Positions 34,076 through 46,835 of a stretch of DNA of 64,000 nucleotides are shown here, piece by piece. The stretch lies in sequence record PZ445511.1; one strand, given 5' to 3'. The position numbers were made by a program, and so were the translations under genes. Numbering within the stretch: the first letter of the stretch is position 1; every line of letters begins with the position of its first letter. This stretch comes from a phage. The notes below the pieces were generated by a model that did no database searches, was not told where the DNA came from, and worked only from the letters and a program-made list of their open reading frames with translations.

Positions 34076-34150
34076 CGGGGTGTAGTCTAAGGGATAGGCA
34101 GGAGTCTTCTAAATTCCTTTATGCAGGTTCGAATCCTGTCACCTCGGCCA
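34076..34150 (+). tRNA. tRNA-Arg (anticodon TCT)
   Basis: Acceptor cggggtg/cacctcg, anticodon loop cttctaa, T-arm gcaggTTCGAATcctgt, CCA encoded. Confidence 0.8.
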
Positions 34151-34176
34151 ATCTTATTACCTGTTAGGAAAATAAA

Positions 34177-34377
34177 ATGAAAACACGATATATAGTAAAA
34201 GTAGTAGGTGAACATTCGCAAGTAAATACCACGGATGTTACAGCACTAGCATTTGAGGTAGTCTCCGGTATAGTCATATTTCATAATGGGGATATCAAAG
34301 CTCCTGAATTTGCTGTGGATGCTGGCCTGTTTATTTCTGCAACTAAAGTAACTGTAGTAGCTAACTCTTCTAAATAA
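34177..34377 (+). CDS. Hypothetical protein
   Basis: 66-aa ORF just upstream of SPFH gene. Confidence 0.45.
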   Translation: MKTRYIVKVVGEHSQVNTTDVTALAFEVVSGIVIFHNGDIKAPEFAVDAGLFISATKVTVVANSSK

Positions 34378-34388
34378 TAAGGAAATAT

Positions 34389-35333
34389 ATGTTTACTAAA
34401 AACACTAAAGAACTGACTTCTGAGCAAAAAGTAATTCGTACTATTAAACGTTGGGGTGTTGGTGCTGCTATTAGTCTTGGTGCTCTTATTCTGGCTCTCA
34501 ATTCCTATACAGTTGTTCAGGATGGTACTGTTAAGACCCAAACCTTCCTGGGTAAAGTTAGCCCTAATCCTGTATTGCCAGGCTTCCATATTGTTAACCC
34601 ATTTGCTTCTTTTGATACTTTTAGTACGAAAGATATTTCCATGAAACTGGATAAACTTCAGGTTCCTAGCCAGGATAAGTTTAAGTCCACTGTTGACATT
34701 ACCGTTATGTTGCAGTTTGATGGTGCTAAAGCTCCTATGAACCGTGTTAACGCAGGTACTCAGGATCAAGCTCTGAACAAGTACGTTGAAGAGAAGATGC
34801 TGTCTACGATTCGTGAGTTTGGTAAGTCTGTACCAAAAGCACAAGATCTGTTCGACGCTAAGATTCAGGCTCAACTGCAAACCGCTATTCAGCAAGAAGT
34901 AGAAGAGTATGCGCGTCCTTATGGTTACACCGTTAAGCAAGTATTCCTTCAGGATATTACTCTGCCACCGGTAATCATGGAACAGGTACAGAACACCAAA
35001 GTTCGTGAAGAACAAGTTAACGCTGCAAAAGCTGAACTGGCTCGTGTTGAACAAGAAGCACAGCAGAAAGTTAAGCAAGCTGAGGCGGATCGTTCCGCTC
35101 GTGAAAACATGGCAGTAGCTAACGAACGTGACGCAGATGCTAAACTGTACGCAGCTAAGAAAGAAGCTGAAGCTAACGCCGCTCTGCAACGTACCATTAC
35201 TCCTGAAATGATTCGTTGGAAGCAGCTGGAAGTTGAAATGCTTCGTGCTGAAAAATACCAAGGTGGTGTACCACAGACTGTTGTCGGTACTGGCTACGAT
35301 GGTCAAATGATCATGGATATGCGTAACAAGTAA
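34389..35333 (+). CDS. SPFH/band-7 (stomatin/prohibitin-like) membrane protein
   Basis: 314 aa; N-terminal TM helix, SPFH core, long Ala/Gln/Glu coiled-coil C-terminus. Confidence 0.7.
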   Translation: MFTKNTKELTSEQKVIRTIKRWGVGAAISLGALILALNSYTVVQDGTVKTQTFLGKVSPNPVLPGFHIVNPFASFDTFSTKDISMKLDKLQVPSQDKFKSTVDITVMLQFDGAKAPMNRVNAGTQDQALNKYVEEKMLSTIREFGKSVPKAQDLFDAKIQAQLQTAIQQEVEEYARPYGYTVKQVFLQDITLPPVIMEQVQNTKVREEQVNAAKAELARVEQEAQQKVKQAEADRSARENMAVANERDADAKLYAAKKEAEANAALQRTITPEMIRWKQLEVEMLRAEKYQGGVPQTVVGTGYDGQMIMDMRNK

Positions 35334-35346
35334 TAGTTACACGTAA

Positions 35347-35383
35347 TCTTCGAACCAAGCCCGCGTTTCCTTCGAGAGCGCGG
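35347..35383 (+). terminator. Rho-independent terminator
   Basis: aagcccgcg...cgcgggctt hairpin then TTTCTATATTT. Confidence 0.6.
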
Positions 35384-35537
35384 GCTTTTCTATATTTAAG
35401 GCAAAAGAAAAAGCCCATAAGTTATTCAACTAAGGTCTTTAGTATTTAATTCTTTAGAATCATATACTATTATTGCAGCAACAACGTGCTAACCTTAAGT
35501 GCCCTGCGATTTTCCTCTAAAAAGTTAAAAAATTCGA

Positions 35538-35566
35538 TTGCTTGAATGCTAAATTCTCTGTATAAT
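35538..35566 (+). promoter_or_regulatory. Sigma70 promoter for nadR-pnuC
   Basis: ttgctt-17bp-tataat; leader identical to the one at 37402-37437. Confidence 0.6.
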
Positions 35567-35596
35567 ATATTTATAAATTTGAGAGAGGAATCAAAT

Positions 35597-36652
35597 ATGA
35601 TTAAGACTGGTCTAGTAATTGGTAAGTTCGCACCATTAACGCGTGGTCATATTAACCTAATAAACACAGCAGCAACTATGTGTGAACGAGTTATTGTTGT
35701 AGTTAGTCATGATAATCGTTGGCTGGATAAGCAGAACACACGTGATAAGGAAGTATTACAGTTAAAGAATCGACTTCGTTGGTTAGAACAAACTTACGCG
35801 GATATTGAGCACATTTCGGTAGAGTACATTATTGAAGATGATATTCCTGAATATCCGAATGGTTGGCCGGAATATGCTAGAATCCTTAATGAAAATTACG
35901 GACATTTGCCTGAGATCACCGTTTTCTCTAGCGAACTAGACTATGATGCAGAATATAAGAAATATCTGCCGAAGTTTGGTCATTATATTGTAGATTCTGA
36001 TCGGACTCGTGTTCCAATCTCAGCTACAATGATTCGTAATGATCTTATGAAGTATTGGGAGTTTCTTCCTAGCGTAGTTCGTAAAGATTACGTGCGTAAG
36101 GTTGTAATCATTGGGACTGAAAGCTCGGGAAAGACTACTTTAACAAAATACCTTGCGAAGCTATACAACACTTCGTGGGTAGAAGAATATGGTCGAACGT
36201 ATTGTGAAGTTGATCTAGTTGGTAACGAAAATCTGCTTACCAGCGAAGATTATAGTAAAATTGCGTTCAGACACAAAGAGCTAGAGTTTGAAGCAGAACG
36301 TACTGCAAATAAGATCATGTTTGTGGATACAAATGCTTTTATTACTGAGTTCTACCACAGACTTTATGAACATAGTAAGAATCCTGTGGTTACAGCAATT
36401 GCAAAAGAAGAACATTATGATTTAGTAATTGTTCTAGCGCCTACTGTCAAGTGGGTAGATGATGGTTTACGTATTAACTCCGATCGTTCAATTACTTCTG
36501 AACTATTCGAGCAGATGAAGAAAGAATTTCCAAATCAGTTCCCTGAAGGGCGTACTGTTTACATCGACTCTCCGGACTACAAAGTTCGTATGGACGAAGC
36601 AGTAAACGCAGTAGACTGGCTGATTCATCACTTTAACGTTGGAGAGTTTTAA
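35597..36652 (+). CDS. nadR: NadR-type bifunctional NMN adenylyltransferase / ribosylnicotinamide kinase
   Basis: N-terminal nucleotidyltransferase GKFAPLTRGH (HxGH-class), C-terminal P-loop GTESSGKTTL kinase; start set after gagagagg RBS. Confidence 0.75.
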   Translation: MIKTGLVIGKFAPLTRGHINLINTAATMCERVIVVVSHDNRWLDKQNTRDKEVLQLKNRLRWLEQTYADIEHISVEYIIEDDIPEYPNGWPEYARILNENYGHLPEITVFSSELDYDAEYKKYLPKFGHYIVDSDRTRVPISATMIRNDLMKYWEFLPSVVRKDYVRKVVIIGTESSGKTTLTKYLAKLYNTSWVEEYGRTYCEVDLVGNENLLTSEDYSKIAFRHKELEFEAERTANKIMFVDTNAFITEFYHRLYEHSKNPVVTAIAKEEHYDLVIVLAPTVKWVDDGLRINSDRSITSELFEQMKKEFPNQFPEGRTVYIDSPDYKVRMDEAVNAVDWLIHHFNVGEF

Positions 36653-36653
36653 T

Positions 36654-37331
36654 ATGACTAACTATCTCGTAAATGACTTTAAAAACTGGAAACCTCTGGA
36701 ATATCTGTGGCTGTTCATAGCGGTTGTCTTCATTAGTTTAGCAAACTATAATGGTACAGCTCTAGATTGGGCTACTGCAATAACCAATGTGGTTTGTGTT
36801 ATTCTGGTTGCAAAAGGACGTATTTCCAACTATATTTGGGGCTTAGTGGGTGTTCTTACATATGGTATTACAGCTTTAAACGCAGATCTTTATGGTAACG
36901 CTGCACTAAACCTGCTATACTACGTTCCTATGCAGTTTTATGGAATGTACTTATGGCATAAAAATAAGCCAAGTAATCTGCCAGATGTTCCAACTAAGGT
37001 TCTGACTAAAGCCCAAGCTCTGCTGACTCTAGGGATTCTAGCAGTAGCCACGTTAGGGTATGGTAGTTTCTTAGCTACTACGGCTGATCCATTTCCAATG
37101 TTGGATGCATTTACTGCTGTAGGTAGTGTGATCGCTATGTGGCTTATGGTTAAGCAATATGCCGAGCAGTGGCTGATCTGGATTGCTATTAACATTGGTA
37201 CTGTGTACATTTGGCTTGTAACTGCTCAATCTACAGGTGCATCTTATGCAATCCTAGCAATGTGGCTAGTATTCTTAGGTAACTCTATTATAGGAGCCTA
37301 TAAAGGATACTTTGTACGCGTTAACAAATAA
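36654..37331 (+). CDS. pnuC: PnuC-like nicotinamide riboside transporter
   Basis: Multi-helix membrane protein with conserved W/Y-rich PnuC-like blocks; coupled to nadR. Confidence 0.65.
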   Translation: MTNYLVNDFKNWKPLEYLWLFIAVVFISLANYNGTALDWATAITNVVCVILVAKGRISNYIWGLVGVLTYGITALNADLYGNAALNLLYYVPMQFYGMYLWHKNKPSNLPDVPTKVLTKAQALLTLGILAVATLGYGSFLATTADPFPMLDAFTAVGSVIAMWLMVKQYAEQWLIWIAINIGTVYIWLVTAQSTGASYAILAMWLVFLGNSIIGAYKGYFVRVNK

Positions 37332-37338
37332 AGTAGTT

Positions 37339-37364
37339 ATAGCCCTCGCTTAGAGGGCTATTAT
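37339..37364 (+). terminator. Hairpin terminator after pnuC
   Basis: atagccctc-gctta-gagggctat, weak U-tract. Confidence 0.45.
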
Positions 37365-37378
37365 ACAGAAATTTTCAC

Positions 37379-37407
37379 TTGCTTAATATAGAAAATTTCT
37401 GTATAAT
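37379..37407 (+). promoter_or_regulatory. Sigma70 promoter
   Basis: ttgctt-17bp-tataat; -10 plus leader plus RBS duplicated from nadR promoter. Confidence 0.6.
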
Positions 37408-37437
37408 ATATTTATAAATTTGAGAGAGGAATCAAAT

Positions 37438-37734
37438 ATGAAACGCATTGTACTTGCATTGACTCTAGTATCTACTTCTGTATTTGCTGCTCCACAACAG
37501 GAACTTTGTCAAGTTCAAGTTTGTAATAAGCTAGAACGATTTACTCTAGACATTTGGTCCCACATTAAAGATAATATGGGTGAACAGTGTTTTGATATTG
37601 TTCTGCCAAAAGAACAAGCTGTTCCTGGGGCTGTTCTCAGCTCAGAATCACGTTGGTGGCAAGGTTCTTCTATCAACCCAACTAAGAAGTCAGTGACACG
37701 TATCAAACAAGTATATCAGTGCAACGTTCAGTAA
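37438..37734 (+). CDS. Secreted Cys-containing protein
   Basis: Signal peptide MKRIVLALTLVSTSVFA then mature domain with 4 Cys. Confidence 0.55.
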   Translation: MKRIVLALTLVSTSVFAAPQQELCQVQVCNKLERFTLDIWSHIKDNMGEQCFDIVLPKEQAVPGAVLSSESRWWQGSSINPTKKSVTRIKQVYQCNVQ

Positions 37735-37742
37735 AATTTCAC

Positions 37743-37771
37743 TTGCTTAATGCCGAAATTTTCTGTATAAT
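37743..37771 (+). promoter_or_regulatory. Sigma70 promoter
   Basis: ttgctt-17bp-tataat. Confidence 0.55.
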
Positions 37772-37804
37772 ATATTCATAAATTTGGAAGATTAGGAACT
37801 ATTT

Positions 37805-38314
37805 ATGTTAGACTATGAGTCTATACTTTATAGATTCCGTTTAGAAGATGGTGTACTGGTGTGGAATCCGCTCTCCGGAAACTCCAGAGAGGAGAAGATA
37901 TTTAATACTAAGTTTGCCAATAAACCTGCGGGATCTTTGCACAAAAGCTCTGGGTATATCAGAGTTAACGTTGATCACCAAGATTACTTAGCTCATATCA
38001 TAGTATTTATACTATGATATGGGTATAGGCCGGAAATGGTTGATCATAAAGACTGCAATAAGTTAAATATACATCCTTTAAATTTAAGAGCAGCGGATAG
38101 TACCACTAATACTCATAATGCTAGTAAATCTTCTAGGAATACTAGCGGATTTAAGGGAGTATCCTACCACAAAGCATCTGGTCAGTGGCAGGGTAGAATA
38201 ATGTTTAAAGGTAAGTCATACTCCGCAGGGCTGCACAGTACTCCTGAAGCAGCAAATGAAGCTCTAATTCAACTGAGAGAGAAACTTCATGGGGAATATG
38301 CCCGAAATAATTAA
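37805..38314 (+). pseudogene. HNH homing endonuclease interrupted by in-frame TGA at 38015-38017
   Basis: Reading continues in the same frame across TGA: ...AHIIVFIL-stop-YGYRPEMVDHKDC..., matching the paralog sequence FIMYYGYRPEEVDHKD. Confidence 0.55.
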
Positions 38315-38403
38315 GGAAGAATAGCATAACGGTATTGCAGCAGATTGCTAATCTGTCGGTTTGAAACATAGCCTTGTGGGTTCGATTCCCACTTCTTCCG
38401 CCA
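38315..38403 (+). tRNA. tRNA-Ser (anticodon GCT), class II
   Basis: Acceptor ggaagaa/ttcttcc, anticodon loop ttgctaa, long variable arm, T-arm gtgggTTCGATTcccac, CCA. Confidence 0.75.
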
Positions 38404-38408
38404 AATTT

Positions 38409-38486
38409 GGTTCTCAAGCTCATTTGGTATGAGCCGTCGCCTCATAAGCGAAAGGTAGGTAGGTTCGAATCCTCCGGGAGCCACCA
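38409..38486 (+). tRNA. tRNA with CAT anticodon (Met or Ile2)
   Basis: Acceptor ggttctc/gggagcc (two G-U), D-arm gctc...gagc, anticodon loop ctcataa, T-loop TTCGAAT, CCA; A at position 8. Confidence 0.65.
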
Positions 38487-38635
38487 GATAACTAGGAGAC
38501 TTTATGTCACGCTTTCACGAAATTAAGCAAGAACTAGAAGAATGTATGTGTACTGAATGTTGGGGTTCTGGCACTTAATGTTCCAGTGACTGGATTCCCT
38601 GATTGGCTGCAAGGTTACGAACTCTAACAAAATTT

Positions 38636-38721
38636 GGATCTGTGGTGGAATTGGCAATACACACCATGCTTAAAACGTGGCGCTTAAATGATTGAGGGTT
38701 CGAGCCCCTCCAGATCCACCA
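38636..38721 (+). tRNA. tRNA-Leu (anticodon TAA), class II
   Basis: Acceptor ggatctg/cagatcc, anticodon loop cttaaaa, 13-nt variable arm, T-arm gagggTTCGAGCccctc, CCA. Confidence 0.75.
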
Positions 38722-38737
38722 AATTAAGGAAGTAAAA

Positions 38738-38860
38738 ATGAAATCTATTAAGAAAGCTATTCGTGAACTTATCCGTTGTCGCTTCCATAACATCAAGGCT
38801 TCAACTAATGGTACTACTTACGATCGCTATGATCCTAAGTTTGGCTTACATTCTAAATAA
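38738..38860 (+). CDS. Hypothetical small protein
   Basis: 40-aa ORF with aaggaag RBS. Confidence 0.35.
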   Translation: MKSIKKAIRELIRCRFHNIKASTNGTTYDRYDPKFGLHSK

Positions 38861-38873
38861 CTGGAGAAAACAA

Positions 38874-39080
38874 ATGGCTAATCCTGAAATTACGGCACAA
38901 CGTTTTATGCTGAAAGGAATTATTGCTGAAGCAGGCGTGACACAAGAAGTGGAAGATTTCCATAAGCAGTTCCTAAATATTCTCACTCAAGCCAAAGAGC
39001 TAGGAGAGAAAGAACATGGCGCGGCTATTATGGCAATCACATTGGTTGGGCTTGATCTGGCAGAAGAATCAGGAGTTTAA
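38874..39080 (+). CDS. Hypothetical protein
   Basis: 68 aa from ATG after ggagaaa RBS. Confidence 0.45.
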   Translation: MANPEITAQRFMLKGIIAEAGVTQEVEDFHKQFLNILTQAKELGEKEHGAAIMAITLVGLDLAEESGV

Positions 39081-39636: not shown

Positions 39637-39717
39637 GGGGGATTGGCTCAGTGGCGACGGCGCCTGGCTGTAGACCGGGTATATCACGCGGAGGTTCGAG
39701 TCCTCCATCCCCCACCA
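39637..39717 (+). tRNA. tRNA-Tyr (anticodon GTA)
   Basis: Acceptor gggggat/atccccc, anticodon stem cctgg/ccggg with loop ctgtaga, extended variable region, T-arm ggaggTTCGAGTcctcc, CCA. Confidence 0.7.
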
Positions 39718-39725: not shown

Positions 39726-39800
39726 GCACCTATCGTCTAATGGTTAGGACATCAGGATTTCAATCTGAGAATTGAACTCCGATTCTCCGTGGGTGTGCCA
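39726..39800 (+). tRNA. tRNA-Glu-like (anticodon TTC) with degenerate T-arm
   Basis: Good acceptor, D- and anticodon arms (loop atttcaa); T-arm tgaac/tccgatt/ctccg pairs poorly; CCA encoded. Confidence 0.45.
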
Positions 39801-39809: not shown

Positions 39810-39880
39810 TGGGGTACACATAGGTTGCTAGTGGGCCTCCAAAACCCATGAAAAGGTTTCGAATACCTTTACCCCTGCCA
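39810..39880 (+). tRNA. tRNA-Trp-like (anticodon CCA) with truncated D-arm
   Basis: Canonical T-arm aaggtTTCGAATacctt and CCA; anticodon loop ctccaaa with C31-A39 mismatch; U1-U72 mismatch; only 15 nt for the D region. Confidence 0.35.
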
Positions 39881-39886: not shown

Positions 39887-39961
39887 GCACCTTTAGCTGA
39901 GATGGATTAGCGCTTGCCTGAAGAGCTTGAGAGGTTCGTTCAATTCGAACAGGGTGCACCA
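39887..39961 (+). tRNA. tRNA-Phe (anticodon GAA), weak anticodon stem
   Basis: Acceptor gcacctt/agggtgc, D-arm gctg...tagc, anticodon loop ctgaaga, T-arm gttcgTTCAATTcgaac, CCA. Confidence 0.55.
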
Positions 39962-42027: not shown

Positions 42028-42101
42028 GCGTTCGTAGTTAAAAGGTATAATTTTTGGTTGCCAACCAGAAGTTGAGGGTTCGATTCCCTCCGACCGCACC
42101 A
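42028..42101 (+). tRNA. tRNA-Gly (anticodon GCC)
   Basis: Acceptor gcgttcg/cgaccgc (one mismatch), anticodon loop ttgccaa, T-arm gagggTTCGATTccctc, CCA. Confidence 0.7.
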
Positions 42102-42351
42102 AATTTAGGGTTCTGCTTCCTAGAGAACGGACTCCTAGATAAACAAGGCGATGAGTTTCCGGCCGGTTCTAGTCGCTGAAAATCCTCCCGACCAGGTAGG
42201 TGTAGGTAAACGAAAGTTTACTTATTGAGTAGGTTCCGATAGATCGGCGGATCTATTCTGGCATTTAAGAGAAGTCTCGCAAACTTCTTTGTCAGCAGAG
42301 CGTTTGAAGCGTGAGGTGGCCTACACAATAAGTAAATTTATTAAAAACTCA

Positions 42352-42381
42352 TTTGCTATTTCACTTAATTCTCTTTATAAT
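42352..42381 (+). promoter_or_regulatory. Sigma70 promoter for tRNA transcription unit
   Basis: ttgcta-18bp-tataat directly upstream of tRNA-Pro. Confidence 0.55.
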
Positions 42382-42413
42382 ATATCTTATAAAGTGAGTT
42401 AACAAAGAATATT

Positions 42414-42491
42414 CTCCGTGTAGCTCAGTTTGGCCAGAGCGTTCCGTTTGGGGCGGTAGGGTCGGGGGTTCAAATCCTCCCACGGAGACCA
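42414..42491 (+). tRNA. tRNA-Pro (anticodon TGG)
   Basis: Acceptor ctccgtg/cacggag, D-arm gctc...gagc, anticodon loop tttgggg (G37), T-arm gggggTTCAAATcctcc, CCA. Confidence 0.75.
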
Positions 42492-42497
42492 AACAAT

Positions 42498-42575
42498 TGC
42501 GGGTTAGATCTCTGGTAGAGATCGCTAGTCTCATAAGCTAGAAAGAGGTAGGTTCGATTCCTACACCCGCTTCCA
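42498..42575 (+). tRNA. tRNA with CAT anticodon (Met-type; unpaired 1-72, possibly initiator-like)
   Basis: Anticodon stem ctagt/gctag loop ctcataa, T-arm gtaggTTCGATTcctac, CCA; position 1 U opposite U72. Confidence 0.6.
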
Positions 42576-42594
42576 ATTTAATAGAGGATACGAA

Positions 42595-42759
42595 ATGAAA
42601 TTATTTCGATTGGTAGTAAGTGATAGACGGTCTAGCAAAGATCGTTCGAAGTATACCTTAGCCCATTATGGGAAAGATGAAAATGAAGTAATGGCTGAAT
42701 TTGGTATTAATCATCGCTACTTAGAAGTTTACTCTATTAAGGAAGTTTATCCGTATTAA
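42595..42759 (+). CDS. Hypothetical small protein
   Basis: 54-aa ORF with agagga RBS between two tRNAs. Confidence 0.4.
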   Translation: MKLFRLVVSDRRSSKDRSKYTLAHYGKDENEVMAEFGINHRYLEVYSIKEVYPY

Positions 42760-42837
42760 GGGTCGTTAGCTCAATTGGTTAGTAGCACTTGCCTTTTAAG
42801 CAATAGGTTGAAGGTTCGAGTCCTTCACGACCCACCA
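42760..42837 (+). tRNA. tRNA-Lys (anticodon TTT)
   Basis: Acceptor gggtcgt/acgaccc, anticodon loop cttttaa, T-arm gaaggTTCGAGTccttc, CCA. Confidence 0.75.
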
Positions 42838-42846
42838 AATTACTTT

Positions 42847-42920
42847 GCTCGGTTAGTTTAATGGGAGAACCCCGTCTTTACACGGCGGTTGCGATAGTTC
42901 GATTCTATCACCGAGTACCA
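42847..42920 (+). tRNA. tRNA-Val (anticodon TAC)
   Basis: Acceptor gctcggt/accgagt, anticodon stem ccgtc/ggcgg loop tttacac, T-arm gatagTTCGATTctatc, CCA. Confidence 0.75.
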
Positions 42921-42939
42921 ATTAACTCAAAATAAGGAA

Positions 42940-43299
42940 TTGCAAATGCAATTATCAAGCAAGATTCAAGGCTATTTTGGTCATGTAACAATGGAGTTCG
43001 CTATCTCTAAAGGTTGGGATTTCGAGCAAGATCTAGCTGAGTTCTACAAAGATATTGATCTGAACGTACCATACATGGGACTCTCCACTGGTCAAGAGAT
43101 CACAGAAGGCGATGTGTTCAAGGCAAGTCAAGGTGAGGTAACACCTAATTTTGCCAAGTTCTGGTTAGGACTTACTTTGAAGGAAGATGCACCAGAGGAT
43201 GGTGTGGTTATGCAGAGTATGCACTCTGGAAGCTCTGATTACCTTTTCGTTAGCGACGTTAAGGAACTACAAGAAATCGCTAAAAATGTACTTGCTTGA
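42940..43299 (+). CDS. Hypothetical protein
   Basis: 119-aa ORF (TTG start per track; internal ATG 6 nt later) after aaggaa RBS. Confidence 0.5.
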   Translation: MQMQLSSKIQGYFGHVTMEFAISKGWDFEQDLAEFYKDIDLNVPYMGLSTGQEITEGDVFKASQGEVTPNFAKFWLGLTLKEDAPEDGVVMQSMHSGSSDYLFVSDVKELQEIAKNVLA

Positions 43300-43320
43300 T
43301 GCTTAATTTCTTGTTATAAT
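43292..43320 (+). promoter_or_regulatory. Sigma70 promoter overlapping upstream stop codon
   Basis: ttgctt-17bp-tataat then gatgagga-GAAA-tcctcatc hairpin in leader. Confidence 0.55.
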
Positions 43321-43582
43321 ATTTATATAAATTGATGAGGAGAAATCCTCATCAAAGTTCACTAAGGTATTAGCTCGACCTAGGGCTGGCTGCCAAAAAG
43401 CACAATTGCAATTAGACCCCTAATGGCGGGGGATACTTTGCAATAAGTTCTAGATTAGTCCACTAGATTCAGTGGCAACTGAATAGTGTATCGGGTTTGT
43501 GAAGAGCGGTTATCCTCTACTGGCTAATGTCTGAGGGTAATACGCACACCGAGCTAATAGCCTTAGTAAACTTAAAGATTTT

Positions 43583-43661
43583 GGGGAATGGGTCTGCTTG
43601 GAGTGGACACCTCGCTTGCACCGAGGATATCAGAAGAGTTCGAATCTCTTATTCTCCACCA
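43583..43661 (+). tRNA. tRNA-Ala-like (anticodon TGC), G3-U70 present, 7-nt variable loop
   Basis: Acceptor ggggaat/attctcc with G3-U70, anticodon stem cctcg/cgagg loop cttgcac, T-arm aagagTTCGAATctctt, CCA. Confidence 0.55.
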
Positions 43662-43666
43662 AATTC

Positions 43667-43742
43667 GGGGTCATAGGTTATTTGGTTAAACTTACTGCCT
43701 TGCAAGCAGTGGAACTCAGTTCAATTCTGAGTGACTCCACCA
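43667..43742 (+). tRNA. tRNA-Ala (anticodon TGC)
   Basis: Acceptor ggggtca/tgactcc with G3-U70, anticodon stem actgc/gcagt loop cttgcaa, T-arm ctcagTTCAATTctgag, CCA. Confidence 0.7.
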
Positions 43743-43761
43743 AACAAATTAAGGAAATAAT

Positions 43762-43980
43762 ATGGTATTCTTAGCAGCCTCTGTAGTTCTTGCAGCTTTA
43801 GCACTAGCTATCTATTTTAGAACTATTAAAGATTTAGCTAAAGAAAAGAAAACTTTCTTTACTGATTATTCTTGGGGCGCTCCATATAACGTCCGCTTTA
43901 TCAGCTTAGAAGCTATGCTGATAATGGTATTCAGTGGCATAGGTTCCATTGTTGCAGGGTTACTATTTATTTCTAACTAA
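43762..43980 (+). CDS. Hypothetical small membrane protein
   Basis: 72 aa with two hydrophobic helices; aaggaaa RBS. Confidence 0.5.
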   Translation: MVFLAASVVLAALALAIYFRTIKDLAKEKKTFFTDYSWGAPYNVRFISLEAMLIMVFSGIGSIVAGLLFISN

Positions 43981-43987
43981 ATAAAAT

Positions 43988-44068
43988 GGGGATGTGGCGA
44001 AATTGGCAGACGCGCTAGATTTAGGTTCTAGTCTTCGGGTGTGGGTTCGAGTCCCTCCATCCCTACCA
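43988..44068 (+). tRNA. tRNA-Leu (anticodon TAG), class II
   Basis: Acceptor ggggatg/catccct, anticodon stem ctaga/tctag loop tttaggt, long variable arm, T-loop TTCGAGT, CCA. Confidence 0.7.
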
Positions 44069-44084
44069 AACATTGGATTAACTC

Positions 44085-44261
44085 ATGATGAAAACTCCTA
44101 TAACTGATATCTGGTTAGCTGTTAATACATCAACTAAAGAGTATGTGTTTATAGAGTATGGTCAGAGGTATGACCAAAAGATGTATAATCTCATACTTCC
44201 AGTATCTGCTAATGAAGTTTATGATTTAATCCTGAGATCTACGGAAGAGCAAATCGATTAG
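44085..44261 (+). CDS. Hypothetical small protein
   Basis: 58-aa ORF; 3' end overlaps tRNA-Ser(GGA). Confidence 0.35.
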   Translation: MMKTPITDIWLAVNTSTKEYVFIEYGQRYDQKMYNLILPVSANEVYDLILRSTEEQID

Positions 44262-44335
44262 GTGACGAAAACCGCTTGGAAAGTGGCTGACTTGTTAAAG
44301 CAGGCTTGAGAGTTCGAATCTCTCTTCTTCCGCCA
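44243..44335 (+). tRNA. tRNA-Ser (anticodon GGA), class II
   Basis: Acceptor ggaagag/ttcttcc, anticodon loop ttggaaa, approx 20-nt variable arm, T-arm gagagTTCGAATctctc, CCA. Confidence 0.55.
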
Positions 44336-44356
44336 AACAACTAATAGGGAATATAA

Positions 44357-44599
44357 ATGAAAGTCAAGATTATGATGTTGGATTTAGCTAATGATAAGTT
44401 TTTCTTGCGTCATACATTCCCTAGTAAGCAAGCTTTAGAGTTTCATATCAAGTACGCAATGGGCATGAAACTTCCTGAGCGAGAAATATTTGATAAAGCA
44501 TGTGATACTGGAGTTATTTATGTATGGCAAACAACCTATCATGATAATCCAGAAGATCTTCGAAAAGAAGTAGAACAAATACTAGAAGATAGTACGTAG
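44357..44599 (+). CDS. Hypothetical protein
   Basis: 80-aa ORF; 3' end overlaps tRNA-Ser(TGA). Confidence 0.45.
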   Translation: MKVKIMMLDLANDKFFLRHTFPSKQALEFHIKYAMGMKLPEREIFDKACDTGVIYVWQTTYHDNPEDLRKEVEQILEDST

Positions 44600-44673
44600 T
44601 GGTATGTAACCGGTCTTGAAAACCGGCCCGCTGTAGTGATACGGTGATGGTTCGACTCCATTATCTTCTGCCA
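44584..44673 (+). tRNA. tRNA-Ser (anticodon TGA), class II
   Basis: Acceptor agaagat/atcttct, anticodon stem ccggt/accgg loop cttgaaa, long variable arm, T-arm gatggTTCGACTccatt, CCA. Confidence 0.7.
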
Positions 44674-44998
44674 AATCTTGAAGTATGCCGGAATCGGTAG
44701 ACGGGGCTTCCTAAAGGGCGTAAGGGGAACATCCACTCCTCATAAGATACCCGAAAACGAGGCTGAGATAACTGGTCTATCTCGTGAAGGTTCGAGTCCT
44801 TCTGCTTCTTGATATTCATCAATGGCTCAAAGTGTAACGGTGCTATTTGATGCTCTTAGTAAGACTTTCCCGACATGCGTTCGGGAGTAAGCTGCTAAGG
44901 CTAGAGTAGAAGAGTTTCGGAGAGCCGCCACAATTGAAGTCTTTAGAATGGGTATCGCCCTTTAGCCCCTCCGAAAGGGATAACTAGAGATTTCAATT

Positions 44999-45075
44999 GT
45001 GGCTATATCATAATTGGTTAATGATCCTGATTGTGAATCAGGCCTATGTGGATTCGAATTCCACTAGCCACCCCA
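44999..45075 (+). tRNA. tRNA-His (anticodon GTG)
   Basis: Acceptor gtggcta/tagccac, discriminator C, anticodon stem cctga/tcagg loop ttgtgaa, T-arm gtggaTTCGAATtccac, CCA. Confidence 0.75.
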
Positions 45076-45081
45076 AATATT

Positions 45082-45156
45082 GCGTCCTTATTTCAACGGA
45101 AAGAATGTAAAGCTACGAACTTTACGATCGGGGTTCGATTCCCTGAGGATGCACCA
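45082..45156 (+). tRNA. tRNA-Arg (anticodon ACG)
   Basis: Acceptor gcgtcct/aggatgc, anticodon stem taaag/cttta loop ctacgaa, T-arm cggggTTCGATTccctg, CCA. Confidence 0.75.
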
Positions 45157-45180
45157 ATTAACTTAAACAGGAAATAAAAT

Positions 45181-45381
45181 ATGGCTGATTTCTGCAAAGA
45201 ATGCTCTATTGATATGTGGGGCAGAGATACTGGTGATCTTTCTGGTCTGATTACAGAAGCCGAAGTTAAAGAAGGCTATGGTGCTGTTGTAATCTGTGAA
45301 GGTTGTGGCATTATCCGTGTTGATCATAATGGTAAACGTCTAGAAGAACCTGATCCAATCGCCACGGTTCCTGTAGAATAA
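45181..45381 (+). CDS. Hypothetical zinc-ribbon-like small protein
   Basis: 66 aa with CxxC...CxxC; ggaaataaaat upstream. Confidence 0.5.
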   Translation: MADFCKECSIDMWGRDTGDLSGLITEAEVKEGYGAVVICEGCGIIRVDHNGKRLEEPDPIATVPVE

Positions 45382-45388
45382 AAATTAT

Positions 45389-45464
45389 TGGGATGTAGAT
45401 CAATTGGTAGATCGTCGGCCTCTGACTCCGAAGGTTCCACGTTCGATCCGTGGCATCCCAGCCA
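45389..45464 (+). tRNA. tRNA-Gln (anticodon CTG)
   Basis: U1-A72 acceptor tgggatg/catccca, D-arm gatc...gatc, anticodon loop ctctgac, T-arm ccacgTTCGATCcgtgg, CCA. Confidence 0.7.
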
Positions 45465-45470
45465 AACAAT

Positions 45471-45546
45471 TGGAGAGTAGTGTAACGGTTAGCACAACGG
45501 CCTTTGACTCCGTTAATGGTAGGTTCGATTCCTCCTTCTCCAGCCA
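45471..45546 (+). tRNA. tRNA-Gln (anticodon TTG)
   Basis: U1-A72 acceptor tggagag/ttctcca, anticodon loop ctttgac, T-loop TTCGATT, CCA. Confidence 0.7.
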
Positions 45547-45552
45547 ATTTAT

Positions 45553-45627
45553 GCGTGATTAGTTCAGTGGCTAGAATAACTGGCTTCCAACCAGTAGACA
45601 CGAGTTCGACTCTCGTATCCCGCACCA
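45553..45627 (+). tRNA. tRNA-Gly (anticodon TCC)
   Basis: Anticodon stem actgg/ccagt loop cttccaa, T-arm acgagTTCGACTctcgt, CCA; one acceptor mismatch. Confidence 0.7.
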
Positions 45628-45643
45628 AATATAAGGAAACGTT

Positions 45644-45865
45644 ATGGACGTTTTTGAGTTTCGTAATAAAAATCCTAATAGACGAGTTTTAATTATTGGT
45701 GAAACATACCGAGCTTATGAACAGGAAGACGGTTCGGTTTTATTAAATGATGAAAAGCAAGGCTATAGCTTTCATCCAGAAGAAACATATGAAGAATTTC
45801 GTACTAAGTTTCTTTTACCAGACTGGCTAGCAATAGCTGAGCAAAGAGAACCCGAAGAGGGCTGA
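45644..45865 (+). CDS. Hypothetical protein
   Basis: 73-aa ORF with aaggaaa RBS. Confidence 0.5.
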   Translation: MDVFEFRNKNPNRRVLIIGETYRAYEQEDGSVLLNDEKQGYSFHPEETYEEFRTKFLLPDWLAIAEQREPEEG

Positions 45866-46032
45866 TAATCTAAAGCTAAAGGTTGATAAGCAAATGAAGT
45901 GTGTTGAGGTTGAGTTGGGTGAAGAACGTTTAAAACTCTCATTCGAATTTCTACAGCAGTTGGCTATGACAGTAATGTCTGATAAGTCCCTTATATTTGA
46001 AAAAGAAATCCCGTTGAAATAATGGGTTTATT

Positions 46033-46107
46033 GCTCCTAAAGCATTGCTGGCGATGCAGTTGCCTTGTAAGCATCTGAACCGGGTTCGATTCCAGGTGGG
46101 AGCACCA
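46033..46107 (+). tRNA. tRNA-Thr (anticodon TGT)
   Basis: Acceptor gctccta/tgggagc, D-arm gcat...atgc, anticodon loop cttgtaa, T-loop TTCGATT, CCA. Confidence 0.65.
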
Positions 46108-46123
46108 AATTTAAAAAATTCAT

Positions 46124-46152
46124 TTGCCTTCTCTCTTATTTCTTGTTATAAT
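46124..46152 (+). promoter_or_regulatory. Sigma70 promoter
   Basis: ttgcct-17bp-tataat. Confidence 0.5.
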
Positions 46153-46182
46153 ATTTATATAAATTAATTAGAGGGAAACCAA

Positions 46183-46476
46183 ATGAAACGTTATCTTTCT
46201 GTCGTGTTCCAAACTGGTGGTCAACGCTACACTTATGAATTTCCTGAGTCCTGGAAAATTAAAGAAGGTGATCAAGTTGTTGTATTAACACCTCGTGAAG
46301 GCTTCAAAGTAGTAACGGTTAAACAAGTATTTCCAAAAGATCACGAACCATCTAAGTCTATTCAGTACAAGATGATTCACGGTCTGGTACGAAAAGTACC
46401 TAGAACAGAAGTCGAAGTAGATAAAACTGGGGGAGTTAAGTATCAATATACATCCTACTTAGACGAGATGATGTAA
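46183..46476 (+). CDS. Hypothetical protein
   Basis: 97-aa ORF with gagggaaa RBS. Confidence 0.55.
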   Translation: MKRYLSVVFQTGGQRYTYEFPESWKIKEGDQVVVLTPREGFKVVTVKQVFPKDHEPSKSIQYKMIHGLVRKVPRTEVEVDKTGGVKYQYTSYLDEMM

Positions 46477-46676
46477 TGAGAATTACTTTCACAGAAAAGA
46501 TTATGTGTAATGGTGTTATGATCATTACAGCGTGGGACGGTAAATTGTGGTGTAACGTATCTGGTCTAAAGCCAGAAGATCAAACACCTGAAAACATCCG
46601 CAAAGTAAAGCGAAAAATGGCGGAACGTGCCCAACTTCCAGGTGCTCCAAGAAATGGAGGCTATTTTTCAACCTAA
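46476..46676 (+). CDS. Hypothetical protein
   Basis: 66-aa ORF, ATGA-coupled. Confidence 0.45.
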   Translation: MRITFTEKIMCNGVMIITAWDGKLWCNVSGLKPEDQTPENIRKVKRKMAERAQLPGAPRNGGYFST

Positions 46677-46677
46677 T

Positions 46678-46753
46678 GCTCCGATAGTTCAACAGGTTAG
46701 AACAGGCGACCGATAATCGTCAAATCTTGGTTCGATCCCAAGTCGGAGTACCA
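46678..46753 (+). tRNA. tRNA-Ile (anticodon GAT)
   Basis: Acceptor gctccga/tcggagt, D-arm gttc...gaac, anticodon stem ggcga/tcgtc loop ccgataa (C33), T-arm cttggTTCGATCccaag, CCA. Confidence 0.65.
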
Positions 46754-46759
46754 AATTAT

Positions 46760-46835
46760 AGTTAGTTGGCAGAACGGTTATGCACCTCCTTCATACGGAG
46801 CGACTACAGTGGTTCAACTCCACTACTAACTACCA
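46760..46835 (+). tRNA. tRNA with CAT anticodon (Met or Ile2)
   Basis: Acceptor agttagt/actaact, anticodon loop ttcatac, T-arm agtggTTCAACTccact, CCA. Confidence 0.6.

What the first reader, a model, noticed from the sequence alone, without database searches (positions are those of the whole stretch)
34076..46835. tRNA array decoding all 20 amino acids, with three CAU tRNAs and non-canonical features
About 30 tRNA genes were resolved by hand. They include paired isoacceptors (Gln CTG/TTG, Gly GCC/TCC, Lys CTT/TTT, Leu TAA/TAG, Arg TCT/ACG, three Ser), two Ala(TGC)-type genes both keeping G3-U70, and three CAT-anticodon genes. One CAT gene (42498-42575) has an unpaired 1-72 position, which may mark an initiator-like species. 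Several tRNAs have A8, C33 or C31-A39, and CCA is genome-encoded in nearly all.
Basis: partly seen in the sequence, partly recalled or inferred. Interest (0 to 1): 0.5.

Follow-up and report, generated by a model that had tools for sequence, protein, structure and literature searches.

The report
T5-like phage tRNA gene cluster
This is the well-known tRNA-rich region of a T5-like Salmonella phage: about 30 tRNA genes that give the phage its own tRNA supply, real and correctly read but already annotated in near-identical published genomes, and its glutamate and tryptophan tRNAs look defective.

Summary
Rfam adds Glu(UUC). Trp(CCA) and a third Ser(GGA) appear only at relaxed thresholds. That makes 30.

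The three CAU genes, G3·U70 in both Ala genes, the U1·U72 mismatch, A8, C33, C31·A39 and encoded CCA are all present. They recur in related phages, so they are not sequencing errors.

The region is 99.1% identical to Salmonella phages vB_SenS-3, RA40 and PMBT36 (Demerecviridae, Epseptimavirus). It is syntenic with the annotated tRNA region of phage T5. By synteny the CAU genes are Ile2 (38409), initiator fMet (42498) and elongator Met (46760).

"All 20 amino acids" is only nominal:
- The Glu gene carries an exact 9-nt inversion in the core of its T arm, relative to a functional allele.
- Trp scores 23.8 bits, below the Rfam threshold of 29.

Most likely function: early-transcribed tRNAs, processed and charged by host enzymes. 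They match the phage's A-ending codon preference and replace host tRNAs cut by defence nucleases, as shown experimentally for T5 tRNA-Lys, Thr, Asn and Tyr.

Novelty: already known. Interest is low.

The parts
34076..34150 (+). tRNA-Arg(UCU)
   Evidence: ARAGORN; Rfam 49.3 bits; 99-100% identical in T5 and relatives
38315..38403 (+). tRNA-Ser(GCU)
   Evidence: ARAGORN; Rfam 60.5 bits
38409..38486 (+). CAU tRNA, assigned tRNA-Ile2 (lysidine type) by synteny; has A8
   Evidence: ARAGORN; Rfam 40 bits. It sits next to Ser(GCU), as T5t23 'tRNAI2(CAU)' does in T5. It is 86% identical to T5t23, with acceptor and D stems identical and T arm nearly so (1 change), but a completely different, still paired anticodon stem. 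Its anticodon stem-loop matches E. coli ileX best (12/17).
38636..38721 (+). tRNA-Leu(UAA)
   Evidence: ARAGORN; Rfam 50.7 bits; among the 8 phages compared, this allele is shared only with RA40
39637..39717 (+). tRNA-Tyr(GUA), 81 nt, with a 9-nt unpaired variable loop (no long arm)
   Evidence: ARAGORN; Rfam 49.9 bits; allele present in 84 phage records; one of 4 Tyr allele classes in 8 phages
39726..39800 (+). tRNA-Glu(UUC)-derived gene in which the core of the T arm (39773-39781) is inverted between 6-bp inverted repeats; probably non-functional
   Evidence: Rfam 35.2 bits; not called by ARAGORN even at -ps80. It differs from the functional SuperGirl/Bas29 allele only by the inversion CGGAGTTCA -> TGAACTCCG.
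39810..39880 (+). weak tRNA-Trp(CCA): U1·U72, C31·A39, defective D arm
   Evidence: Rfam 23.8 bits, below 29; ARAGORN only at -ps90; 94% identical to T5t20 'tRNA-Trp'
39887..39961 (+). tRNA-Phe(GAA)
   Evidence: ARAGORN; Rfam 45.8 bits
40492..40567 (+). tRNA-Cys(GCA) with C31·A39
   Evidence: ARAGORN; Rfam 40.7 bits
40720..40802 (+). tRNA-Asn(GUU), 83 nt with a long variable arm; positions 36-41 as in the host
   Evidence: ARAGORN; Rfam 59 bits
41667..41741 (+). tRNA-Asp(GUC)
   Evidence: ARAGORN; Rfam 63.1 bits
41748..41824 (+). tRNA-Lys(CUU) with A3·A70 (not compared: only lysT-type UUU genes were fetched from E. coli K-12)
   Evidence: ARAGORN; Rfam 58.6 bits
42028..42101 (+). tRNA-Gly(GCC) with U4·C69
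   Evidence: ARAGORN; Rfam 61.1 bits
42414..42491 (+). tRNA-Pro(UGG)
   Evidence: ARAGORN; Rfam 53.3 bits
42498..42575 (+). initiator-like tRNA-fMet(CAU): U1·U72, G2:C71, C3:G70, G4:C69, A11:U24, U73; only G30:C40 of the three G:C pairs
   Evidence: ARAGORN; Rfam 46.2 bits; 99% identical to T5t14 'initiator tRNA fMet'; acceptor matches E. coli metZ at 10/14
42760..42837 (+). tRNA-Lys(UUU): acceptor identical to E. coli lysT, anticodon stem CUUGC/GCAAU (G39)
   Evidence: ARAGORN; Rfam 64.3 bits; rare allele, 15 phage records
42847..42920 (+). tRNA-Val(UAC)
   Evidence: ARAGORN; Rfam 57.8 bits
43583..43661 (+). tRNA-Ala(UGC) copy 1: G3·U70, G8, 11-nt D loop
   Evidence: ARAGORN; Rfam 38.1 bits
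43667..43742 (+). tRNA-Ala(UGC) copy 2: G3·U70
   Evidence: ARAGORN; Rfam 59.6 bits
43988..44068 (+). tRNA-Leu(UAG)
   Evidence: ARAGORN; Rfam 53.5 bits
44243..44335 (+). weak tRNA-Ser(GGA)
   Evidence: ARAGORN only at -ps95; Rfam tRNA-Sec model 23.8 bits. It is 95% identical to the ARAGORN-called Ser(GGA) of vB_EcoS-26175I, from which it differs by three 1-nt insertions.
44584..44673 (+). tRNA-Ser(UGA) with A8
   Evidence: ARAGORN; Rfam 43.5 bits on the Sec model; anticodon stem-loop 17/17 identical to E. coli serT
44999..45075 (+). tRNA-His(GUG): acceptor identical to E. coli hisR, but T instead of G at position -1
   Evidence: ARAGORN; Rfam 59.9 bits
45082..45156 (+). tRNA-Arg(ACG)
   Evidence: ARAGORN; Rfam 53.4 bits
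45389..45464 (+). tRNA-Gln(CUG) with C31·U39
   Evidence: ARAGORN; Rfam 58.9 bits
45471..45546 (+). tRNA-Gln(UUG) with C31·U39
   Evidence: ARAGORN; Rfam 50 bits
45553..45627 (+). tRNA-Gly(UCC) with U4·C69
   Evidence: ARAGORN; Rfam 65.5 bits
46033..46107 (+). tRNA-Thr(UGU) with A8 and G39
   Evidence: ARAGORN; Rfam 43.1 bits; same anticodon stem-loop as T5 tRNA-Thr
46678..46753 (+). tRNA-Ile(GAU) with C33
   Evidence: ARAGORN; Rfam 59.2 bits. The C33 allele is conserved in 6 of 8 phages, with compensatory T-stem changes; T5 and RA40 carry a different U33 allele.
46760..46835 (+). elongator tRNA-Met(CAU)
   Evidence: ARAGORN; Rfam 47.9 bits; 96% identical to T5t01
   Evidence: ARAGORN 'SeC(tca)'; Rfam 33 bits. 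Acceptor, D and T arms are conserved in T5 with a compensatory T-stem change, but the anticodon arm differs. It lies at the 5' end of what the T5 record annotates as stable 'RNAX'.

Best explanation
This is the tRNA-rich region of a T5-like virulent siphovirus (Demerecviridae, Epseptimavirus) that infects Salmonella or E. coli. About 27 structurally sound tRNA genes, plus three damaged or marginal ones, lie on one strand. Small ORFs, HNH homing-endonuclease genes and NAD-salvage genes are interspersed among them.

Inferred mechanism:
- Host RNA polymerase transcribes the genes from early promoters as multi-gene precursors.
- Host RNase P and 3' nucleases cut out the tRNAs. No CCA addition is needed because CCA is encoded.
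- Host aminoacyl-tRNA synthetases charge them. The phage tRNAs keep the host's discriminator base and known identity marks, although the rest of each tRNA body is very different.

The set gives the phage a private tRNA pool with two benefits. First, it supplies U34 tRNAs for the A-ending codons that this 40% G+C genome prefers. Second, it keeps translation going when host tRNAs are cut by defence nucleases such as PARIS AriB, PrrC, retron Eco7 and Septu PtuAB, because the phage versions differ at the cleavage sites.

Shown here: the genes, their structures, the synteny and the sequence differences at known cleavage sites. Shown by others for T5 homologs: rescue from PARIS, retron Eco7 and PrrC. 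Inferred: expression, charging and resistance of this phage's particular alleles.
For: Identity of the region:
- 99.1% identical over 13 kb to Salmonella phages vB_SenS-3, RA40 and PMBT36; 668 phage records match.
- Gene order matches T5: Arg, SPFH protein, [NadR-like and PnuC: shared with the Epseptimavirus relatives RA40/Seafire, replaced in T5 by T5.076-079], Ser(GCU)-Ile2, Tyr-Glu-Trp-Phe, Cys, Asn, Asp, Pro-fMet, Lys-Val, Ala, Leu, Ser, His, Gln-Gln-Gly, Thr, Ile-Met, then a GrcA-like gene.

Structure under selection:
- The odd positions recur in relatives, with compensatory changes. Examples are the T stem of Ile(GAU), His 5:68, and the whole anticodon stem of Ile2.

Charging by host enzymes:
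- N73 equals the E. coli isoacceptor in all but Gly and fMet.
- G3·U70 is present in both Ala genes.
- The Lys(UUU) and His acceptor stems are 14/14 identical to the host.

Codon match:
- 9 of the 10 A-ending codons read by the phage U34 tRNAs are enriched in phage ORFs relative to E. coli (log2 +0.68 to +2.15).

Defence evasion:
- AriB cuts E. coli tRNA-Lys and tRNA-Thr at U36AAUC|A41, and U39->A abolishes cleavage (PMC12409363).
- Window Lys(UUU) and Thr(UGU) both read UAAGCA, with G39. T5 tRNA-Thr, which helps rescue from PARIS, has the same stem-loop.
- Retron Eco7 and Septu cut the variable arm of host tRNA-Tyr (PMC13096335). The window Tyr has no such arm.
- T5 tRNA-Lys neutralises PARIS (PMC11464382).
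- tRNA-Tyr and tRNA-Lys of T5-like phages rescue from retron Eco7 and PrrC170, and the roughly 8-kb tRNA region is deletable (PMC11555353).
- In 8 phages, the number of deep allele classes is highest for Lys(UUU) and Tyr (4 each), followed by Asn and Gln(CUG) with 3.
Against: - No expression, processing or charging data exist for this phage.
- The overall codon test is weak (Mann-Whitney p = 0.066). The host reference is E. coli K-12 ORFs picked by length, not Salmonella.
- Between closely related alleles, differences are not concentrated in the anticodon stem (4.5% against 3.3-5.0% elsewhere). A general stem-targeted arms race is therefore not visible at that scale.
- The allele-class count rests on only 8 phages.
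- The window Asn keeps the host-like AriB site.
- Glu and Trp look defective, so the set is not a complete replacement.
- tRNA-His lacks an encoded G-1, which should hurt charging by E. coli-type HisRS.
Confidence: 0.85

Rival explanations
1. The set exists purely for codon-usage compensation. It tunes the tRNA pool to the AT-rich phage genome and has no role against host defences.
For: Phage ORFs prefer A- and U-ending codons. The phage U34 tRNAs read codons enriched up to 4-fold relative to E. coli: CTA +2.15, AGA +2.07, GTA +1.24, GGA +1.07, CCA +1.04.
Against: - The set also covers two-codon families in which the phage tRNA reads the codon the phage uses less (GAC, CAC, AAC, TAC, TGC).
- The whole-set test gives p = 0.066.
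- The PARIS paper states that T5 codon usage does not directly support the hypothesis.
- T5 tRNA-Lys, Thr, Asn and Tyr demonstrably counter PARIS and retron Eco7.
- Codon compensation does not explain the four different Lys(UUU) and four different Tyr alleles, which all carry the same anticodon.
Confidence: 0.25
2. The phage needs its own tRNAs because infection shuts the host down. T5-type phages degrade host DNA, so host tRNA synthesis stops and the pool must be refilled for late protein synthesis.
For: The set nominally covers nearly all amino acids, including an initiator, which suits a general replacement pool. Depletion of host tRNAs on infection is cited as a driver in PMC10264068.
Against: - tRNAs are long-lived relative to a lytic cycle.
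- T5 deletion mutants lacking 11-17 tRNA genes still grow on defence-free hosts.
- This phage's Glu and Trp genes are defective, and 12 phages share the Glu defect.
Confidence: 0.3
3. Much of the array is selfish or decaying cargo. On this view the tRNA genes persist mainly as landing sites and passengers of the HNH homing endonucleases scattered among them, and many are on their way to becoming pseudogenes.
For: - Three HNH ORFs lie in or next to the array: 32445-32927, 37805-38314 (itself broken by an in-frame TGA) and 41095-41676.
- Syntenic tRNAs are swapped as whole cassettes between otherwise 94-99% identical phages.
- Glu, Trp and Ser(GGA) are degraded.
- T-arm-only remnants lie at 41942, 41994 and 44786.
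Against: - 27 genes keep full cloverleaves, encoded CCA and host identity elements, with compensatory substitutions.
- The T5 record notes that many homologs work as suppressors in vivo.
- Specific homologs have proven anti-defence function.
Confidence: 0.15

Closest known systems
tRNA gene region of Escherichia phage T5 (NC_005859, genes T5t01-T5t25) and the 'tRNA-rich region' (TRR) of T5-like phages described by Azam et al. 2024 (PMC11555353)
   Same: Both have the same gene order, the same strand, the same flanking genes, interspersed small ORFs and HNH endonucleases. Fourteen tRNAs are 91-100% identical to T5's by ARAGORN: Arg UCU, Ser GCU, Phe, Cys, fMet, Val, His, Thr, Met and others. 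The three CAU genes occupy the positions of T5 Ile2, fMet and Met.
   Different: - The window has 30 genes against 24-25 in T5. It adds Leu(UAA), Lys(CUU), Gly(GCC), Arg(ACG) and a second Ala(UGC).
- It carries the NadR-like/PnuC insert typical of Epseptimavirus.
- Many same-anticodon genes are different alleles that are well below 85% identical to the T5 gene (best same-anticodon matches 67-82%): Lys UUU, Tyr, Asn, Asp, Gln x2, Glu, Ile GAU, Leu UAG, Pro, Ala.
- Where T5 annotates stable RNAs of unknown function, the window has full tRNAs or T-arm remnants.
Salmonella phages RA40 (OR242313), vB_SenS-3 (MT004791, OR896822) and PMBT36 (PP926504)
   Same: 99.1% DNA identity over the whole array. 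ARAGORN gives the same 28-gene list for RA40. They share the same inverted Glu T arm.
   Different: RA40 carries the other Ile(GAU) allele (U33) and a different spacing before Met. The window has a TGA stop in the HNH ORF at 38015-38017 that RA40 lacks.
T4-type and other large-phage tRNA clusters (T4 has 8 tRNAs; KVP40, Sf14 and mycobacteriophages have more)
   Same: All are clusters of phage-encoded tRNAs, processed by host enzymes, and discussed under the same two hypotheses of codon compensation and evasion of anticodon nucleases (PMC10264068).
   Different: They are an unrelated phage lineage with a different gene order. T4 answers PrrC by repairing the host tRNA with a kinase and a ligase, rather than by a resistant tRNA-Lys. 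The array here is much larger and nominally covers every amino acid.

Membership tests
Canonical tRNA genes (Rfam RF00005 / ARAGORN cloverleaf) | Cloverleaf scoring at or above the curated threshold (29 bits) or accepted by ARAGORN at default settings | tested here: met
   28 of the 30 genes in the range pass at least one test. Trp (23.8 bits) and Ser(GGA) pass neither at default settings.
Canonical tRNA genes (Rfam RF00005 / ARAGORN cloverleaf) | 7-nt anticodon loop with U33 and a purine at position 37; T loop of the TTCRANY type | tested here: met
   Met by 26 of the 27 ARAGORN genes in the range. The exception is Ile(GAU), which has C33. Glu has no T loop.
T5-like (Demerecviridae) tRNA-rich region | Nucleotide similarity and conserved gene order with T5 and Epseptimavirus genomes, with all genes on one strand | tested here: met
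T5-like (Demerecviridae) tRNA-rich region | Interspersed HNH homing endonucleases and small ORFs; flanked by the YqeY-like ORF upstream and the GrcA-like glycyl-radical ORF downstream | tested here: met
   Pfam: HNH_3 in 32445-32927, 38036-38314 and 41095-41676; YqeY (weak) in 31958-32401; Gly_radical in 47019-47387.
Bacterial initiator tRNA-fMet (for 42498-42575) | No Watson-Crick pair at 1:72 | tested here: met
   U1·U72 (E. coli has C1·A72).
Bacterial initiator tRNA-fMet (for 42498-42575) | G2:C71, C3:G70 and G4:C69 acceptor pairs (formylase determinants; from established knowledge) and A11:U24 | tested here: met
   The acceptor is UGCGGGU/ACCCGCU, matching E. coli metZ at 10 of 14 positions. 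The D stem is GAUC/GAUC, which gives A11:U24.
Bacterial initiator tRNA-fMet (for 42498-42575) | Three consecutive G:C pairs, 29:41, 30:40 and 31:39, in the anticodon stem | tested here: not met
   The stem is CUAGU/GCUAG: A29:U41, G30:C40, U31·G39. T5 and all 7 relatives have the same stem.
Bacterial initiator tRNA-fMet (for 42498-42575) | Discriminator A73 | tested here: not met
   U73.
tRNA-Ile2 read through lysidine (for 38409-38486) | CAU anticodon, A73 and A37-A38 as in E. coli ileX | tested here: met
   The loop is CUCAUAA and the discriminator is A73. The anticodon stem-loop matches ileX at 12/17, against 7/17 for elongator metT.
tRNA-Ile2 read through lysidine (for 38409-38486) | Acceptor pairs C4:G69 and C5:G68, used by E. 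coli TilS (from memory of the TilS literature) | tested here: inconclusive
   The gene has U4:A69 and C5:G68, so one of the two pairs is present. Overall identity is slightly higher to metT (74%) than to ileX (68%). The assignment rests on synteny with T5t23.
tRNA-Ile2 read through lysidine (for 38409-38486) | C34 actually converted to lysidine, and the tRNA charged with Ile | not testable with these tools
   This needs mass spectrometry or tRNA-seq of infected cells.
Bacterial tRNA-His | Genome-encoded G-1 opposite C73 | tested here: not met
   Position -1 is T in the window, T5 and three relatives, and G in E. coli hisR; C73 is present. The T5 record annotates a 78-nt tRNA-His that includes this extra 5' base.
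tRNA-Ala | G3·U70 wobble pair | tested here: met
   Present in both copies.

The most novel reading that the evidence does not exclude
The 9-nt inversion inside the tRNA-Glu T arm (window 39773-39781), bounded by perfect 6-bp inverted repeats GAGAAT/ATTCTC, may not be a one-off pseudogenising accident. It could be a recurrent and reversible flip, produced by template switching at a quasi-palindrome during replication, that turns the phage tRNA-Glu off and on within Salmonella Epseptimavirus populations.

Both orientations exist on otherwise identical Tyr-Glu-Trp blocks. The inverted state is linked to at least three different downstream Phe variants.
Probability: 0.08. Interest if true: 0.5.

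Novelty: already known. Interest (0 to 1): 0.2.

Why it matters
As a discovery it matters little. T5 tRNA genes have been sequenced and annotated gene by gene in the T5 reference record, and this exact array sits annotated in several GenBank genomes.

As biology the region is topical. T5 tRNAs are the best-proven case of viral tRNAs defeating tRNA-cleaving immune systems (PARIS, retron Eco7, PrrC).

This window adds small, testable points:
- A rare Lys(UUU) allele and the common Thr(UGU) allele both carry G39 at the AriB cleavage site.
- The Tyr allele has no long variable arm, which is where retron Eco7 and Septu cut.
- The Asn allele keeps the host-like AriB site.
- The Glu gene was silenced by a micro-inversion.
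- Eight related phages carry four unrelated alleles each of Lys(UUU) and Tyr.

Together these give a natural panel for mapping what each nuclease recognises.

Tried and rejected
1. Anticodon-stem hotspot. I asked whether differences between related alleles pile up in the anticodon stem, as the Ile2 case suggested. Over 88 allele pairs that are at least 80% identical, from 8 phages, the anticodon stem differs at 4.5% of positions against 3.3-5.0% in other regions. Rejected as a general rule.

2. Extra tRNAs. Perfect T-arm motifs outside called genes lie at 41942, 41994 and 44786. Rfam gives at most 14 bits for tRNA there. They are not tRNAs. They probably correspond to the 'stable RNAs' in the T5 record.

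3. Suppressor idea. An in-frame TGA in the HNH ORF (38015-38017) and a 'UCA' tRNA-like gene at 32965 suggested read-through. However, the tRNA-like gene lacks CCA and has C37 and a G31·G39 mismatch. It is also identical in relatives that have Tyr at that codon. No support.

4. Single or recurrent Glu inversion. Flank distances are mosaic: window to falkor (inverted) 84 differences, window to bobsandoy (canonical) 25. IMG/VR holds 0 inverted and 6 canonical copies. Recombination and recurrence cannot be separated.

5. Recent capture from the host. Rejected. tRNA bodies differ widely from E. coli (acceptor identity 1-11 of 14 for most), with only Lys(UUU) and His at 14/14.

6. Promoter and terminator scan. 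Promoter-like sites are no more frequent than in shuffled sequence (34 against 37.4 ± 5.5). Uninformative.

Full report
**What is there**

ARAGORN on the whole 64-kb window returns 28 tRNA genes, all on the + strand and all between 32965 and 46835.

Rfam's tRNA model at its curated threshold gives 27 hits in the window, with E-values down to 5e-12. A more permissive scan of 31000-49000 adds Ala 43583 (38.1 bits) and Ser 44584.

Rfam also finds one gene that ARAGORN rejects: 39726-39797, 35.2 bits. Its anticodon loop AUUUCAA gives Glu(UUC).

- Trp(CCA) at 39810-39880: 23.8 bits against a cut-off of 29, and ARAGORN only at 90% stringency.
- Ser(GGA) at 44243-44335: ARAGORN only at 95% stringency, and 23.8 bits on the tRNA-Sec model.

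The total in the interval is 30, so 'about 30' is right, and automated finders return the same anticodons.

**The detailed claims**

A position-by-position table (structures) confirms each detail:
- All five named isoacceptor pairs are present.
- Both Ala(UGC) genes have G3·U70.
- There are three CAU genes.
- 42498-42575 has U1·U72.
- A8 occurs in the CAU gene at 38409, in Ser(UGA) and in Thr(UGU).
- C33 occurs in Ile(GAU).
- C31·A39 occurs in Cys and Trp.
- CCA is encoded in all 30 genes.

- G8 and an 11-nt D loop in the first Ala copy.
- C31·U39 in both Gln genes.
- U4·C69 in both Gly genes.
- A3·A70 in Lys(CUU).
- A T where bacterial tRNA-His genes encode G-1.
- An 83-nt Asn with a long variable arm.
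- An 81-nt Tyr whose variable region is a 9-nt unpaired loop.

These oddities are not sequencing noise. They recur in relatives, sometimes with compensatory changes elsewhere in the same gene.

**Where it comes from**

The 13-kb stretch is 99.1% identical to Salmonella phages vB_SenS-3, RA40 and PMBT36. It matches 668 phage records, almost all T5-like. RA40 is classified as Demerecviridae, Markadamsvirinae, Epseptimavirus. Its record annotates the same tRNAs, and ARAGORN gives an identical 28-gene list for it.

The T5 reference record describes the homologous region gene by gene, with promoters, suppressor-test notes and eight 'stable RNAs with unknown functions'.

By position relative to T5:
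- The CAU gene after Ser(GCU) is T5t23 'tRNA-Ile2(CAU)'.
- The one after Pro is T5t14 'initiator tRNA fMet' (99% identical).
- The one after Ile(GAU) is T5t01, elongator Met (96% identical).

The ORFs between the tRNAs are the usual ones: three HNH endonucleases, an SPFH protein, a NadR-like NMN adenylyltransferase/kinase, a PnuC transporter, a weak YqeY-like ORF upstream and a GrcA-like glycyl-radical ORF downstream.

**The initiator-like gene**

- Fits an initiator: the 1:72 mismatch, the G2:C71, C3:G70 and G4:C69 pairs, and A11:U24.
- Does not fit: the anticodon stem is CUAGU/GCUAG, so only one of the three G:C pairs that mark bacterial initiators is present, and the discriminator is U, not A.

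This is the same in T5 and in all seven relatives examined. It is a stable family trait, not decay.

**'All 20 amino acids' is only nominal**

The Glu gene differs from the Glu gene of phage SuperGirl/Bas29, which ARAGORN accepts, by one event only. The nine central bases of the T arm are reverse-complemented: CGGAGTTCA becomes TGAACTCCG. The segment sits between perfect 6-bp inverted repeats GAGAAT/ATTCTC. The rest of the 329-nt Tyr-Glu-Trp-Phe block is 99% identical.

The inversion removes the T stem and the TTCAATT loop. The free-energy fold replaces them with an 8-bp hairpin.

Eighteen records, representing 12 phages that all infect Salmonella, carry this exact form, and most annotators leave it unannotated. 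More than 60 records, plus six IMG/VR contigs, carry the canonical orientation. IMG/VR holds no inverted copy.

The Trp gene is the T5 type (94% identical to T5t20). It has a crippled D arm and two mismatches. The T5 record notes that it did not become a suppressor, although this is also expected for Trp, where the anticodon is an identity element.

In summary, 18 amino acids plus initiator and Ile2 functions rest on sound genes. Glu is probably lost, and Trp is doubtful.

**How it most likely works**

All genes share one strand. Neighbours are often only 5-9 nt apart, and each ends in CCA followed by an A/T-rich spacer. This fits multi-gene transcripts cut by host RNase P and 3' nucleases, which is an inference.

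Comparison with 33 E. coli K-12 tRNA sequences fetched for this purpose gives three results:
- The phage tRNA bodies are very different from the host's.
- The discriminator base matches the host isoacceptor in every case except Gly and fMet.
- G3·U70 is kept, and the Lys(UUU) and His acceptor stems are identical to the host's.

That pattern is what one expects of tRNAs that depend on host synthetases.

Two selective benefits are supported.

First, codon match. The phage is about 40% G+C. Nine of the ten A-ending codons read by its U34 tRNAs are enriched relative to E. coli, up to 4-fold for CTA and AGA. The test over all codons is only suggestive, at p = 0.066.

Second, defence evasion, which has direct experimental backing for T5 homologs:
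- T5 tRNA-Lys is not cut by the PARIS nuclease AriB and rescues infection (PMC11464382).
- Full rescue needs T5 tRNA-Lys, Thr and Asn. AriB cuts at U36AAUC|A41, and U39->A blocks it (PMC12409363).
- tRNA-Tyr and tRNA-Lys of T5-like phages rescue from retron Eco7 and PrrC170, and the roughly 8-kb region is dispensable on defence-free hosts (PMC11555353).
- Retron Eco7 and Septu cut the variable arm of host tRNA-Tyr (PMC13096335).

In the window:
- Lys(UUU) and Thr(UGU) both read UAAGCA, with G39. This is the same stem-loop as T5's tRNA-Thr.
- Asn keeps the host-like UAAUCC.
- Tyr has no variable arm to cut.

I therefore predict resistance for Lys, Thr and Tyr, and sensitivity for Asn. This is inference from sequence only.

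**Variation among relatives**

Genes with the same anticodon at the same position can be under 80% identical between phages that are otherwise 94-99% identical.

Clustering the alleles of eight phages at 85% identity gives:
- Four classes each for Lys(UUU) and Tyr.
- Three each for Asn and Gln(CUG).
- One each for Thr, His, Val, Arg, Phe and Gly.

The most diversified are the known nuclease targets, though eight genomes is a small sample.

The window's Lys(UUU) allele is rare, at 15 phage records. Its Tyr allele is in 84.

The idea that point differences concentrate in the anticodon stem did not survive a test on 88 allele pairs. The variation looks like whole-gene cassette exchange, plausibly helped by the neighbouring homing endonucleases (inference).

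**Verdict**

The object is a known kind of thing in a known phage lineage, already annotated in public genomes.

The only features I could not find described are the micro-inversion that disables tRNA-Glu and the allele-class pattern. Both are modest. Whether the inversion arose once or recurs could not be settled, because the flanks are mosaic.

Noticed in passing
window 39767-39787 (inside tRNA-Glu 39726-39800): There is an exact 9-nt inversion of the T-arm core (TGAACTCCG here, CGGAGTTCA in phage SuperGirl/Bas29 and more than 60 other records) between perfect 6-bp inverted repeats GAGAAT/ATTCTC. It is shared by 12 Salmonella Epseptimavirus genomes and absent from IMG/VR. It destroys the T loop.
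   Followed up: partly
window 37805-38314 (+), stop at 38015-38017: The 169-aa HNH/AP2 homing-endonuclease ORF just upstream of tRNA-Ser(GCU) carries an in-frame TGA where RA40, vB_EcoS-26175I and Seafire have TAT (Tyr). Two adjacent substitutions, AT->GA, cause it. It is probably a pseudogene in this isolate.
   Followed up: partly
window 32965-33038 (+): A tRNA-like element is called 'tRNA-SeC(tca)' by ARAGORN and annotated 'tRNA-Sec' in RA40 and 26175I. It scores 33 bits in Rfam, lacks CCA, has C37 and a G31·G39 mismatch. Its acceptor, D and T arms are conserved in T5 with a compensatory T-stem change, but the anticodon arm is unrelated. It lies at the 5' end of the region that T5 annotates as stable 'RNAX'. 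It is neither a credible selenocysteine tRNA nor a credible suppressor tRNA.
   Followed up: partly
window 44998-45075: The base at position -1 of tRNA-His is T, not the G-1 that E. coli hisR encodes. The same is true in T5, RA40, 26175I and Seafire. C73 and the whole acceptor stem equal the host's. The T5 record annotates a 78-nt tRNA-His that includes this extra base. How the tRNA is charged is unclear.
   Followed up: partly
window 41825-42027, 42102-42413 and 44674-44998: These ORF-poor spacers (only a marginal 46-aa GTG ORF at 41851-41991 and a 44-aa TTG ORF at 44678-44812) contain perfect T-arm motifs (41942 GCTTGTTCGATTCAAGT, 41994 GTAGGTTCAAGTCCTAC, 44786 GAAGGTTCGAGTCCTTC) but do not score as tRNAs (at most 14 bits). 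They sit where the T5 record places stable RNAs of unknown function (RNA2, RNAIV, RNA1, RNAI, RNAIII).
   Followed up: partly
window 40720-40802, 39637-39717 and 43988-44068: Several variable arms do not fit the usual tRNA classes. Asn(GUU) is 83 nt with a 13-nt variable arm (GUC-GAAA-GAC stem); E. coli's is 76 nt. Tyr(GUA) is 81 nt with no long arm; E. coli's is 85 nt. Leu(UAG) is 81 nt with an 8-nt variable region; E. coli's is 85 nt.
   Followed up: no
window 38409-38486 against T5 gene T5t23 (L004): The Ile2-type tRNA of the window and that of T5 have identical acceptor and D stems and a nearly identical T arm (one change), but entirely different, fully paired anticodon stems (GUCGC/GCGAA against CCCAG/CUGGA). 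The stem alone has been swapped.
   Followed up: partly
L002 12021-12098, and also L019 and L020 (Lys UUU allele of vB_EcoS-26175I, Shin27 and Ace): A Lys(UUU) allele in related phages has C33 (loop CCUUUAA). This is the position next to the PrrC cut site. The window's own Lys(UUU) has U33.
   Followed up: no
window 31958-32401 and 35546-37331: A weak YqeY/GatB-like ORF (annotated 'tRNA amidotransferase' in T5 and Seafire) lies just upstream of the array. A NadR-like NMN adenylyltransferase/ribosylnicotinamide kinase plus a PnuC transporter sit inside it. The tRNA region therefore also carries NAD-salvage genes.
   Followed up: no
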